Of a stretch of 64,000 nucleotides of DNA, positions 59,401 to 62,400 are shown piece after piece. The first letter of the stretch is position 1; the number at the start of each line of letters is the position of its first letter. Origin of the DNA: Escherichia coli (GTDB lineage: Bacteria; Pseudomonadota; Gammaproteobacteria; Enterobacterales; Enterobacteriaceae); the NCBI RefSeq assembly GCF_013122565.1, contig NZ_CP053258.1; one strand, given 5' to 3'. Position numbers: made by a program.

Positions 59401-62400
59401 CGGTCGCCAGCCTGATCGTCCCCGGCGTCTTTATGGTCAGCCTGACGCTATTTATCTGCTATCAGGCGGTACGCCGCATCACCCGCCCGCTGGCGGAGCT
59501 GCAAAAAGAGCTGGAAGCGCGCACCGCCGACAACTTAACGCCCATTGCCATTCACAGCGCCACCCTCGAAATCGAAGCGGTGGTTTCGGCGTTGAACGAT
59601 CTGGTCAGTCGCCTGACCAGCACGCTGGATAACGAAAGGTTGTTTACCGCTGACGTCGCGCACGAACTGCGAACGCCACTGGCGGGGGTGCGTTTGCATC
59701 TGGAACTGCTGGCGAAAACGCATCACATTGATGTAGCACCGTTAGTGGCACGGCTTGATCAGATGATGGAGAGCGTCTCCCAGCTGCTGCAACTGGCGCG
59801 TGCCGGACAGTCATTTTCTTCCGGTAATTATCAACATGTAAAACTGCTGGAAGATGTCATTCTCCCCTCGTATGACGAACTCAGTACCATGCTCGACCAG
59901 CGCCAGCAAACCCTGCTATTGCCAGAGAGCGCCGCCGACATCACCGTTCAGGGTGATGCAACCCTGCTGCGGATGTTATTGCGAAACCTGGTAGAAAACG
60001 CCCATCGTTACAGCCCGCAAGGCAGCAACATTATGATTAAGCTGCAAGAAGATGGCGGAGCGGTCATGGCTGTTGAAGATGAAGGTCCGGGTATTGATGA
60101 GAGTAAATGCGGGGAGTTGAGTAAAGCATTTGTACGTATGGACAGCCGTTATGGCGGGATTGGTCTGGGGTTAAGTATTGTCAGCCGCATTACACAGTTG
60201 CATCACGGGCAGTTTTTCCTGCAAAACCGGCAAGAGACTTCCGGCACGCGGGCCTGGGTACGGCTGAAGAAAGATCAAAACGTGACAAACCAGATATAAA
60301 GAAAGCTGCTGACCACCAGCACGCTGAACACGGTAGTTAAACTTTCATAAACACGGTTTTTCATTGCACTCTCCTCCGTTAACCTGGAGGAGAGTATGCG
60401 CGTCAGAGATTAAGTGAACCTTAAGAGTTCAATTGGCCTGATAAGACAGCGTCACATCAGGCCATCCGTTTCAGCTTATTCATCAATTCGCGGATGTTGC
60501 TGCACCAGGCGGGTACGTTTCGCCTGCAAATCGGCAATCTCGTGGTCAATATTATCGATTTTCTGCTCGATATTATCGTAATGCTCGACGAGAATTTCCT
60601 TCGCTTCCTGTATATCTGACGCCGCCGGTGTCGCACCTTTCAACGGACGATTTGCCGTCTCTTTCATGGTTACGCCGGTGATTAAACCAACCATCGCCAC
60701 TACCATCAGGTAATAGGCTGGCATCATCAGATTCTGCGAGCTTTCGACCAGCCAGGCCGCCAGTGTTGGCGTCAGACCGGCAACCAGCACCGAAATATTA
60801 AATGCCGCCGCCAGCGCGCTGTAACGGATATGCGTCGGGAACATCGCTGGCAAGGTAGAAGCCATAACGCCCGTAAAGCAGTTAAGGATCACCGCCAGCA
60901 TCAGTAACCCGGCAAAAATCAGGCCGATGACGTTACTGTTAATCAGAATAAACGCCGGGATCGCCAACACAAACAGGGCAACACTACCAAGTAGCACAAA
61001 CGGACGACGGCCAAAACGGTCACTCAGCAAGCCCATCACCGGCTGGACAAACAGCATACCGATCATAATGGCGATAATAATCAGCACCCCGTGGTCTTCG
61101 GAGTAATGCAGGTTATGCGACAAATAACTCGGCATATAGGTCAGCAACATGTAGTAAGTCACGTTGGTGGCAATTACCAGACCAATACATGTCAACAGGC
61201 TGCGCCAGTATTTAGTGGCAATCTCTTTAAACGAGACTTTCGGGCCATCCTGCAAACCTTCGCGGTCGCCCTGTTCCAGTTTATCAACATGCTGCTGGAA
61301 CGCTGGAGTTTCTTCCAGCGCATGGCGCAGGTAAAGCCCGATAATCCCTAACGGCAGAGCGATAAAGAACGGAATACGCCAGCCCCAGTCGAGGAAGTTC
61401 GCTTCGCCGACAATGGTCGAAATTAACACCACCACGCCTGCACCCAGCACAAACCCGGCAATAGAACCGAAGTCCAGCCAGCTGCCCATAAAGCCACGTT
61501 TACGGTCAGGGGAGTATTCCGCAACAAATATCGACGCCCCGGTATATTCACCGCCGACCGAGAAACCTTGTGCCATCTTACAGATCAACAGCAGAATCGG
61601 TGCCCAAATACCAATCGTGTCGTAGGACGGTATTAAGCCAATACAGAACGTACTGATCGACATAATCACAATAGTGATAGCCAGGATCTTCTGGCGACCA
61701 TATTTATCGCCCAACATACCAAAGAAGAGTCCACCAAGCGGTCGAATCAGAAAGGGAACGGAGAACGTGGCAAGTGCAGCAACCATCTGCACGCTGGGGT
61801 CAGCCCCCGGGAAAAAAACTTTACCTAATGCGTAAGCAACAAAACCATAAACACCAAAATCGAACCATTCCATTGCATTACCCAGTGATGCTGCGGTAAT
61901 GGCTTTACGCAGTTTACCGTCATTAATAATGGTGACATCACGAAGGGTAATCGGTTTTACTTTTTTCCTTTTCAGCATAGCTTTCCTCGCAGAGTTGGCC
62001 CATTTCCGCAAACGCCAGAAAAATCAGCGCGACGGCCGCAAAAGGGGAGCGGGAATTGCAGGATGCAATCTCTGTAACAAGCGTAGCGGGTTTGCTTACA
62101 CTCTCCGGTTAAGGAATGTCCAATCAAACCAGTTGACGCCTGAATTGGGCAGTTAATGACCTTTTTACCCTACCAGTGTTTAAATTTGTGATCAACTTCA
62201 CATATGGATTTCGTTTAGGACTCATTGATGTAACTGATTATTTACGCCAAATTTACAGAGAAGATTTCCTCGACCATTGCCCCCACCAGACGCTGCGCTG
62301 AACAGAGTCGTGGCATCCCCAGCGCGACAGTTTGCCAACGTTGGGTCACTGACCAGCTAACGGGTTGTTTATCTGCCGTGGTCCACTTTCCCAGCCAACT

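What the first reader, a model, noticed from the sequence alone, without database searches (positions are those of the whole stretch)
60275..60364. 29-aa pmrR reading frame antisense to the basS 3' end
A short hydrophobic ORF on the minus strand overlaps the last codons of basS. It matches the PmrA-activated small membrane peptide PmrR, which feeds back on lipid A modification. It is known but is absent from the supplied ORF track.
Basis: partly seen in the sequence, partly recalled or inferred. Interest (0 to 1): 0.2.

Follow-up and report, generated by a model that had tools for sequence, protein, structure and literature searches.

The report
Known small membrane peptide gene pmrR

Summary
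Confirmed and already known. The 29-codon ORF lies at 60275-60364 (-) and overlaps the basS 3' end by 25 nt. It meets NCBI's curated PmrR model full-length (68.5 bits, cut-off 30). RefSeq annotates pmrR at this position in E. coli, MG1655 b4703 included. An exact PmrA box (CTTAAGGTTCACTTAAT, 60409-60425, -) lies 44 nt upstream of the ATG; the window's only other exact box precedes eptA. Of 80 basS loci from other species, 55 carry the same unit: box, 41-46 nt, start codon, 28-33-aa hydrophobic ORF. Substitutions follow a coding pattern. Published work shows start-site ribosome signal, membrane localisation, and lpxT-dependent loss of polymyxin resistance when the box is deleted.

Side observations:
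- A conserved, co-varying hairpin pairs the pmrR Shine-Dalgarno with a left arm that overlaps the -10. The predicted start falls at the loop, and Term-seq maps an RNA 3' end just after the stem. This may insulate pmrR from read-through; the start is not mapped.
- Rfam 'sRNA' STnc630 is this promoter plus mRNA.
- uvrB-linked counterparts in Klebsiella and relatives escape both curated models.

The parts
60275..60364 (-). pmrR coding sequence, 29 codons plus TGA stop; peptide MKNRVYESLTTVFSVLVVSSFLYIWFVTF
   Evidence: ORF list. NCBIfam NF033224 PmrR equivalog, 68.5 bits against a cut-off of 30, positions 1-29 of 29. RefSeq pmrR sits at the same place. The exact peptide is on record as PmrR.
60275..60299 (.). 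25-nt antisense overlap between the 3' ends of pmrR and basS (basS = 59199..60299, +)
   Evidence: The same 25-bp overlap is described in PMC8004244 and PMC8129183. The overlap is not conserved between genera: it ranges from 42 nt of overlap to a 7-nt gap.
60409..60425 (-). PmrA (BasR) box CTTAAGGTTCACTTAAT, an exact match to YTTAAK-N5-YTTAAK, with 44 nt between the box and the ATG
   Evidence: A box with 0-1 mismatch is present in all 55 module-bearing loci. Deleting this box in E. coli abolishes polymyxin B resistance in an lpxT-dependent way (PMC8129183).
60393..60398 (-). Candidate -10 hexamer CATACT, 10 nt downstream of the box (inferred, not mapped)
   Evidence: Positions 2 (A) and 6 (T) are invariant in 52 of 52 distinct sequences. 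Box-to-hexamer spacing is 10 nt in 51 of 52. The eptA promoter in the window has the same layout: box, 10 nt, GAGCAT. The generic sigma-70 scan finds nothing here, as expected for an activator-dependent promoter with no -35.
60368..60395 (-). Hairpin: left arm ACTCTCCTCC (60395..60386, overlapping the -10), loop AGGTTAAC (60385..60378), right arm GGAGGAGAGT (60377..60368), which is the pmrR Shine-Dalgarno
   Evidence: MFE -22.7 kcal/mol, z = -4.0. RNAalifold finds the same stem. 85% of cells pair against 42-58% when partners are slid; covariation 0.294 against 0.162 in shuffles, 0 of 500 reach it. A stem forms in 47 of 48 sequences folded singly. It is part of the structure line of Rfam RF02052.
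60385..60385 (-). Predicted PmrA-dependent transcription start (A, 8 nt after the -10), equivalent to MG1655 ~4332095; inference only
   Evidence: The left arm ends 6-8 nt after the -10 in 45 of 52 sequences, so the expected start falls at the first loop base. No 5'-end data could be found.
60364..60364 (-). Mapped RNA 3' end on the pmrR-sense strand, five nucleotides past the stem (MG1655 4332116-4332117)
   Evidence: Term-seq table of bioRxiv 10.1101/2020.07.18.207399. TRS table of PMC10687069, whose text says the upstream gene terminates inside the pmrR CDS. Coordinates converted.
60268..60433 (-). Full-length match to Rfam RF02052 'STnc630' (candidate enterobacterial sRNA); it spans the PmrA box, hairpin and whole pmrR ORF
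   Evidence: 177.7 bits against a gathering score of 55, model positions 1-166 of 166. The model consensus translates to an intact 29-aa PmrR that is 23/29 identical to the window peptide.
60307..60321 (-). Small stem TGCTGGTGGTCAGCA followed by GCTTTCTTTA inside the pmrR CDS (terminator-like; role unknown)
   Evidence: Terminator scan; it is also in the Rfam RF02052 structure line.
59199..60299 (+). basS (pmrB) sensor kinase gene, convergent with pmrR; last gene of eptA-basR-basS
   Evidence: ORF list; RefSeq annotation of the matching region.
60476..61978 (-). proP, the co-oriented gene upstream of pmrR and the likely source of read-through RNA
   Evidence: proP is the upstream gene only in Escherichia and Citrobacter amalonaticus; in most other genera it is uvrB.
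56827..56843 (+). The window's only other exact PmrA box (CTTAAGGTTGGCTTAAT), upstream of eptA; same regulon

Best explanation
The ORF is pmrR, a real protein-coding gene for a 29-residue single-helix inner-membrane peptide. When the BasS/BasR (PmrB/PmrA) system is activated, phospho-BasR binds the direct-repeat box at 60409-60425 and drives transcription towards basS. Activating signals are Fe3+, mild acid, or low Mg2+ acting through PhoPQ and PmrD. The peptide inserts in the membrane and inhibits LpxT, the enzyme that adds a second phosphate to position 1 of lipid A. That frees position 1 for phosphoethanolamine addition by EptA, lowers surface negative charge and raises polymyxin resistance. 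In the Salmonella model it also reduces Fe3+ binding, which dampens PmrB signalling (negative feedback).

Shown here: the ORF, its family membership, the box, and conservation of the unit with a coding pattern of substitution. Taken from the literature: PmrA dependence, translation, membrane location, LpxT inhibition and the feedback loop.

Inferred here: the promoter's -10 lies in the left arm of a conserved hairpin whose right arm is the pmrR Shine-Dalgarno. A PmrA-started mRNA would therefore begin at the loop with a free ribosome-binding site. RNA reading in from the upstream gene (proP here) would carry the whole hairpin, which ends it or masks the ribosome-binding site.
For: Identity: NF033224 PmrR at 68.5 bits against a cut-off of 30; RefSeq pmrR at the same position in E. 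coli, including MG1655 b4703; the exact peptide is on record as PmrR.

Regulation: an exact PmrA box 44 nt upstream, with 2 in the window against 0.07 expected and the other one at eptA.

Conservation: 55 of 80 basS loci carry box, 41-46 nt, start codon and a 28-33-aa hydrophobic ORF. F at position -9, W at -5, T/S at -2 and Y/F at the C-terminus are near-invariant. Pairwise differences by codon position are 137/33/225 in Escherichia and Citrobacter, and 94/14/125 outside the basS overlap. The other five frames contain stops in 37-51 of 54 sequences.

Literature: Ribo-RET start-site signal up 5-fold in low Mg2+, membrane fractionation, and complementation lost when ATG is changed to TAA (PMC11429745). 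Deleting the PmrA box gives polymyxin B sensitivity that is reversed by deleting lpxT (PMC8129183). pmrR is co-induced with eptA, arn and basR in Fe(III)-adapted E. coli B (PMC13405929).

Hairpin part: plus RNA 3' ends mapped just past the stem.
Against: Nothing argues against the gene's identity. Four caveats apply to the mechanism.
- The pmrR deletion and overexpression growth phenotypes in low Mg2+ are independent of lpxT (PMC11429745), so LpxT may not be the only target in E. coli.
- A transcriptional reporter for the region just upstream of pmrR showed no significant low-Mg2+ induction in that study.
- For the hairpin model, the transcription start is not mapped.
- The strand preference of the stem is weak: sense is more stable in 29 of 48 sequences (p = 0.02), and G.U against A.C cells are 39 against 30.
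Confidence: 0.95

Rival explanations
1. The locus is a non-coding RNA (the Rfam sRNA STnc630, or a cis-antisense RNA that down-regulates basS by transcriptional interference or RNase III cleavage), and the ORF is incidental.
For: Full-length RF02052 STnc630 match at 177.7 bits. pmrR-basS is listed among convergent 'excludons' in E. coli RNA-seq (PMC12288877). The TRS table lists a pmrR 3' UTR of about 100 nt, which would run antisense into basS.
Against: Substitutions follow a coding pattern, and only this frame stays open in all the ORFs recovered. The overlap with basS is not conserved, ranging from 42 nt to a 7-nt gap, while the ORF is. Changing the start codon to a stop abolishes complementation, and Ribo-RET marks the start (PMC11429745). 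The Rfam model includes the PmrA box itself, so its boundaries are not those of the PmrA-dependent RNA. An antisense effect in addition to the peptide is not excluded.
Confidence: 0.03
2. It is a chance ORF antisense to the end of basS, with no product.
For: The window holds 642 ORFs of at least 29 aa. Hydrophobic ORFs are common antisense to coding sequence.
Against: Only 25 of its 90 nt lie antisense to basS. Against chance: HMM E = 3e-19, an exact PmrA box at a fixed distance, conservation across many genera with a coding pattern of substitution, and published translation and genetic evidence.
Confidence: 0.005
3. PmrR is a real peptide, but in E. coli its main role is not LpxT inhibition. 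It would act on another membrane partner, for example BasS itself or other lipid A enzymes.
For: Growth defects from pmrR deletion and overexpression persist in a strain lacking lpxT (PMC11429745). PMC8129183 proposes that an LpxT/PmrR complex interacts with EptA or other enzymes. PMC8004244 argues that its data do not fit the Salmonella feedback model.
Against: Polymyxin sensitivity of the PmrA-box deletion is reversed by deleting lpxT, and deoxycholate phenotypes follow LpxT activity (PMC8129183). The PMC8004244 truncation data are explained more simply by loss of the pmrR promoter (my mapping).
Confidence: 0.15

Closest known systems
PmrR of Salmonella enterica and E. coli (NCBIfam NF033224, 'LpxT activity modulator PmrR'; E. 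coli K-12 b4703)
   Same: Same length (29 aa), same position convergent with and overlapping the pmrB/basS 3' end, and the same PmrA-box promoter. The HMM match is full-length and above cut-off. The Salmonella-type consensus peptide derived from the Rfam model is 23/29 identical.
   Different: It differs only by an allele: V at residue 27 where most E. coli have A. The same base (60285) changes BasS residue 363 from A to T. This allele is already on record, seen on 147 contigs.
Rfam RF02052 STnc630 (candidate enterobacterial sRNA)
   Same: The window matches the model end to end, including its hairpins.
   Different: The family is filed as an sRNA gene, but its consensus contains the PmrA box, a Shine-Dalgarno, an AUG and an intact 29-codon ORF. 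It is therefore the pmrR promoter plus mRNA rather than a separate non-coding gene.
Other small membrane-protein regulators of the PhoPQ/PmrAB network (MgrB, MgtS)
   Same: Peptides of similar size with one transmembrane helix. They are induced by the same stress network and act by binding a larger membrane protein (PMC11429745).
   Different: No sequence relationship. The targets differ (PhoQ; MgtA/PitA), and those peptides are not encoded convergent to the kinase gene.

Membership tests
PmrR (NCBIfam NF033224, equivalog) | Whole-protein HMM score at or above the curated cut-off of 30 bits, covering the full 29-position profile | tested here: met
   68.5 bits, E = 3e-19, residues 1-29 on profile positions 1-29 of 29.
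PmrR (NCBIfam NF033224, equivalog) | Peptide of about 29 aa with one hydrophobic, membrane-spanning segment | tested here: met
   29 aa. The best 19-residue Kyte-Doolittle window scores 2.07 at residues 9-27. Membrane fractionation of E. coli PmrR-6xHis is reported in PMC11429745; I did not test it here.
PmrR (NCBIfam NF033224, equivalog) | Gene convergent with, and at the 3' end of, pmrB/basS | tested here: met
   25-nt overlap with basS. RefSeq records have the same arrangement, as do 55 of 80 related loci.
PmrR (NCBIfam NF033224, equivalog) | PmrA box (YTTAAK-N5-YTTAAK) in the promoter | tested here: met
   Exact box at 60409-60425 (-). The window holds 2 against 0.07 expected.
PmrR (NCBIfam NF033224, equivalog) | PmrA/BasR-dependent transcription, and translation of the ORF | not testable with these tools
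   Literature only: PmrA-box deletion phenotype (PMC8129183), Ribo-RET and RNA-seq induction (PMC11429745), and co-induction with eptA and arn under Fe(III) adaptation (PMC13405929).
PmrR (NCBIfam NF033224, equivalog) | Binds and inhibits the lipid A phosphotransferase LpxT | not testable with these tools
   Literature only: Kato et al. 2012 as cited in PMC8129183, PMC8004244 and PMC11429745, and lpxT-dependent genetics in E. coli (PMC8129183).
Rfam RF02052 STnc630 | Covariance-model score at or above the gathering score of 55 bits | tested here: met
   177.7 bits, model positions 1-166 of 166, at 60433..60268 (-).
Rfam RF02052 STnc630 | Being a non-coding small RNA, as the family type states | tested here: not met
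   The matched stretch contains an ORF under protein-level selection. The model consensus itself encodes an intact PmrR.

The most novel reading that the evidence does not exclude
The conserved hairpin in front of pmrR is a promoter-selective insulator. Its left arm overlaps the -10 and its right arm is the Shine-Dalgarno. The PmrA-dependent start lies at the loop, so only PmrA-initiated mRNA has a free ribosome-binding site. RNA reading in from the upstream gene (proP or uvrB) forms the whole stem and is ended there or kept untranslated. This would keep a peptide that is harmful when mis-expressed strictly under PmrA control. It would also be an example of a promoter built inside a stem-loop that blocks read-through.
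Probability: 0.35. Interest if true: 0.4.

Novelty: already known. Interest (0 to 1): 0.12.

Why it matters
As a finding it only restores a known gene that automatic ORF calling tends to miss because it is short and overlaps basS. PmrR matters biologically because it decides whether position 1 of lipid A carries a second phosphate or phosphoethanolamine. That choice trades polymyxin resistance against bile-salt resistance (PMC8129183).

The side results could be of practical use:
- Rfam files this locus as an sRNA.
- A divergent, uvrB-linked version of the peptide in Klebsiella, Raoultella, Kluyvera, Kosakonia and others carries a PmrA box. It is recognised by neither curated model and is labelled 'hypothetical' in public records. 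This is relevant to colistin-resistance studies in K. pneumoniae.

Tried and rejected
Searches and look-ups that led nowhere:
- The search for homologous proteins refuses queries under 40 aa, and the peptide is also under the 30-aa minimum of the representative search. I replaced these with an unbiased fetch of basS loci.
- Kato et al. 2012 (PMC3465083), Hong et al. 2018 (PMC5967240) and Thomason et al. 2015 (PMC4288677) are not held, so the published Salmonella start site could not be read.
- TSS look-ups in the Cappable-seq (PMC4782308) and Kim 2012 (PMC3415461) supplements found nothing near the predicted start, in either MG1655 coordinate version. Those cultures were not PmrA-inducing and the stored files may be partial, so this is no evidence either way. 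The ~1977-base offset I used for the older coordinates rests on my memory of proP's old position.
- No paper in the library mentions STnc630.
- The generic sigma-70 scan finds no promoter in 60100-60600. That is uninformative for an activator-dependent promoter with no -35.

Ideas considered and dropped:
- That the hairpin is simply the proP terminator. It is conserved where uvrB is the upstream gene. K. pneumoniae and Pluralibacter have a separate canonical uvrB terminator just upstream of the box. The hairpin is missing wherever pmrR is missing although uvrB and basS still converge.
- That the hairpin is an intrinsic terminator for basS. No T-run follows it on the basS-sense strand in the species I read.
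- That the basS overlap is itself functional. Its extent is not conserved.

The strand-asymmetry test of the stem gave only a weak preference for the pmrR-sense RNA.
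Full report
**1. The observation**

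The window has an ATG-initiated ORF at 60275..60364 on the minus strand. It encodes MKNRVYESLTTVFSVLVVSSFLYIWFVTF, 29 aa. basS occupies 59199..60299 on the plus strand, so the two genes overlap tail to tail by 25 nt. The peptide is strongly hydrophobic, with a best 19-residue Kyte-Doolittle mean of 2.07 at residues 9-27.

An ORF of this length means nothing by itself, because the window holds 642 ORFs of at least 29 aa. The case therefore rests on the other evidence below.

**2. Identity**

- The peptide matches the curated NCBIfam equivalog NF033224, 'LpxT activity modulator PmrR', over its whole length: 68.5 bits against a cut-off of 30, E = 3e-19. Pfam has nothing for it.
- The 501 bases around it occur in 5412 of 5426 complete E. 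coli genomes, with pmrR annotated between pmrB and proP.
- In a sample taken evenly down the whole ranking, 60 of 60 records annotate pmrR under the match.
- MG1655 carries it as b4703 at 4332116..4332205.
- The window's allele has V at residue 27 where most E. coli have A. The responsible base (60285) lies in the overlap and also changes BasS residue 363 from A to T. This exact peptide is already deposited as PmrR and was seen on 147 contigs.

**3. Promoter**

The PmrA-box consensus YTTAAK-N5-YTTAAK has two exact matches in the 64 kb, against 0.07 expected; none of 100 shuffles reaches two. One is upstream of eptA, at 56827-56843 (+). The other is at 60409-60425 (-), 44 nt upstream of the pmrR ATG.

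**4.

The peptide is too short for the protein search tools. I therefore fetched basS loci from one genome per species, regardless of what lies downstream.

- 55 of 80 loci carry the unit: a PmrA box (0-1 mismatch), then 41-46 nt, then a start codon opening a 28-33-aa hydrophobic ORF that ends at or across the basS stop. One of these uses a GTG start.
- The genera include Escherichia, Citrobacter, Klebsiella, Raoultella, Kluyvera, Kosakonia, Phytobacter, Pseudocitrobacter, Trabulsiella, Yokenella and Pluralibacter.
- The unit is absent from Pectobacterium, Rahnella, Ewingella, Rouxiella and others, and from a few Enterobacteriaceae.
- The sequences diverge strongly but keep F at -9, W at -5, T/S at -2 and Y/F at the C-terminus.
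- Pairwise differences by codon position are 137/33/225 in the Escherichia/Citrobacter group, and 94/14/125 outside the basS overlap. In the 30-aa group they are 10424/6924/14168. Position 3 varies most and position 2 least, which is the signature of protein-coding selection.
- The other five reading frames contain stops in 37-51 of the 54 sequences.
- The extent of overlap with basS ranges from 42 nt to a 7-nt gap. The overlap is therefore incidental and the ORF is what is conserved.

**5. Literature**

- PMC8129183 describes the E. coli gene, its 3' overlap with pmrB and its PmrA-box promoter. Deleting only the box in a PmrA-constitutive strain gives polymyxin B sensitivity, which is reversed by deleting lpxT, and restores deoxycholate resistance.
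- PMC11429745 reports a 5-fold rise in Ribo-RET start-site reads for PmrR in low Mg2+ and membrane fractionation of PmrR-6xHis. It also reports a deletion phenotype that is complemented by the wild-type gene but not by an ATG-to-TAA mutant. That phenotype is independent of lpxT, so a second target is possible.
- PMC13405929 finds pmrR co-induced with eptA, arn and basR in Fe(III)-adapted E. coli B.
- The LpxT-binding and feedback model comes from Kato et al. 2012. I could read it only through these citing papers.

**6. Side observation: the hairpin**

Between the box and the ATG lies a stable hairpin of -22.7 kcal/mol, z = -4.0. Its right arm, GGAGGAGAGT, is the pmrR Shine-Dalgarno.

- In an alignment of 52 distinct box-to-ATG segments, a -10-like hexamer sits 10 nt after the box in 51 of 52 (CATACT in the window). 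Its A2 and T6 are invariant. The eptA promoter has the same layout.
- The left arm of the stem begins inside this hexamer.
- RNAalifold recovers the stem independently.
- 85% of cells pair, against 42-58% with slid partners. The covariation score is 0.294 against 0.162 in shuffles, and none of 500 shuffles reaches it. One pair shows CG 17, AU 17, GC 6 and GU 6.
- A stem forms in 47 of 48 sequences folded alone.
- The left arm ends 6-8 nt after the -10 in 45 of 52 sequences. That is where transcription would be expected to start, so a PmrA-initiated mRNA would begin at the loop and lack the anti-Shine-Dalgarno arm. This step is inference; I found no 5'-end data.

What is shown experimentally is an RNA 3' end on the pmrR-sense strand at MG1655 4332116-4332117, five nucleotides past the stem. 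It appears in two independent data sets. PMC10687069 states that the upstream gene terminates inside the pmrR CDS. An RNA carrying the complete stem therefore exists, and it must have started upstream of the -10.

The stem is not merely the upstream gene's terminator:
- The upstream co-oriented gene is proP only in Escherichia and C. amalonaticus, and uvrB in most other genera.
- K. pneumoniae and Pluralibacter have a separate canonical uvrB terminator whose T-run merges into the PmrA box.
- Where pmrR is absent but uvrB and basS still converge, the box and the stem are absent too.

My reading, at about 0.35 probability, is an insulator that ends or silences read-through RNA while letting PmrA-started mRNA be translated. 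The strand preference of the stem is only weakly resolved.

**7. Other side observations**

- Rfam RF02052 'STnc630' matches 60433..60268 end to end at 177.7 bits. Its consensus contains the PmrA box, the stem, the AUG and an intact 29-codon ORF. The 'sRNA' family is therefore the pmrR promoter plus mRNA.
- Both RF02052 and NF033224 recognise only the Escherichia/Citrobacter type. The uvrB-linked peptides of Klebsiella, Raoultella, Kluyvera, Kosakonia, Phytobacter and Trabulsiella score 0-19 bits. Public records call them 'hypothetical protein'.
- PMC8004244 reported that colistin resistance from BL21 pmrB needs 103-126 bp downstream of pmrB. Counting from the base after the basS stop, +86 is 60385 (promoterless pmrR), +103 is 60402 (includes the -10 but not the box) and +126 is 60425 (exactly the complete box). 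This matches their MIC pattern of none, 4 and 16 ug/mL. This mapping is my own inference.

**8. Verdict**

The gene is already known and interest is low. The hairpin geometry and the unannotated uvrB-linked orthologues are modest leads that go beyond the finding as given.

Noticed in passing
window 60368-60398 (-); alignment A1 of 52 related loci: A conserved, co-varying hairpin pairs the pmrR Shine-Dalgarno with a left arm that overlaps the candidate -10. The left arm ends 6-8 nt after the -10 in 45 of 52 sequences, so the predicted PmrA-dependent start falls at the loop. The hairpin may insulate pmrR against read-through.
   Followed up: partly
window 60364 (-), equivalent to MG1655 4332116-4332117 (+): Two public 3'-end data sets map an RNA 3' end on the pmrR-sense strand five nucleotides past the hairpin, at the pmrR ATG. 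This implies that proP read-through RNA ends there.
   Followed up: partly
window 60268-60433 (-): Rfam RF02052 'STnc630' (filed as an sRNA) matches full-length. Its consensus includes the PmrA box, the Shine-Dalgarno, the AUG and an intact 29-codon PmrR ORF, so the family is really the pmrR promoter plus mRNA.
   Followed up: yes
L016 3550-3642 (-) (K. pneumoniae); also L022, L013, L043, L029, L062, L019 and about 40 other loci: uvrB-linked, PmrA-box-preceded 30-aa peptides occupy the pmrR position, for example MQKINFREYLAVATALVIIVAFFHQWVLTF. They score below the NCBIfam PmrR cut-off (0-19 bits), are missed by Rfam STnc630, and are labelled 'hypothetical protein' in public records. They are probably unrecognised PmrR orthologues.
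   Followed up: partly
window 60385, 60402, 60425: The truncation end-points of PMC8004244 (+86, +103 and +126 bp after pmrB; MIC none, 4 and 16) coincide with the predicted pmrR start, the -10 and the distal end of the PmrA box. [quoted passage not shown]
   Followed up: partly
window 60285: One base in the overlap changes both proteins relative to the common E. coli allele: PmrR A27V and BasS A363T. A second difference at 60278 is synonymous in both frames.
   Followed up: partly
related loci L002-L081, basS stop region: The pmrR/basS overlap is not conserved: 25 nt in Escherichia, 4 nt in Citrobacter and Raoultella, 22 nt in Klebsiella, 42 nt in some Kosakonia, and none (gaps of up to 7 nt) in Kluyvera and Phytobacter.
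   Followed up: yes
L016 3686-3745 (-); L061 about 3638-3680 (-): In K. pneumoniae and a Pluralibacter genome, the T-run of the uvrB intrinsic terminator runs directly into the first half-site of the PmrA box (...GCGGCCTTCTTAATGTTTGCTTAAT). Terminator and activator site share bases.
   Followed up: no
window 60433-60466: A REP-like palindrome (GCCTGATGTGACGCTGTCTTATCAGGC) lies between the proP stop and the PmrA box.
   Followed up: no
window 60307-60321 (-): A terminator-like stem with a T-rich tail lies inside the pmrR coding sequence and is also in the Rfam structure line. Its role is unknown; translation of pmrR might counteract it.
   Followed up: no
E. coli plasmid records, e.g. NZ_CP083870.1 499-676: Four matches to the pmrR region lie on records typed as plasmids. 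One is an 18-kb record at 94.5% identity with pmrR next to a gene annotated as 'ATP-binding protein', possibly a truncated pmrB.
   Followed up: no
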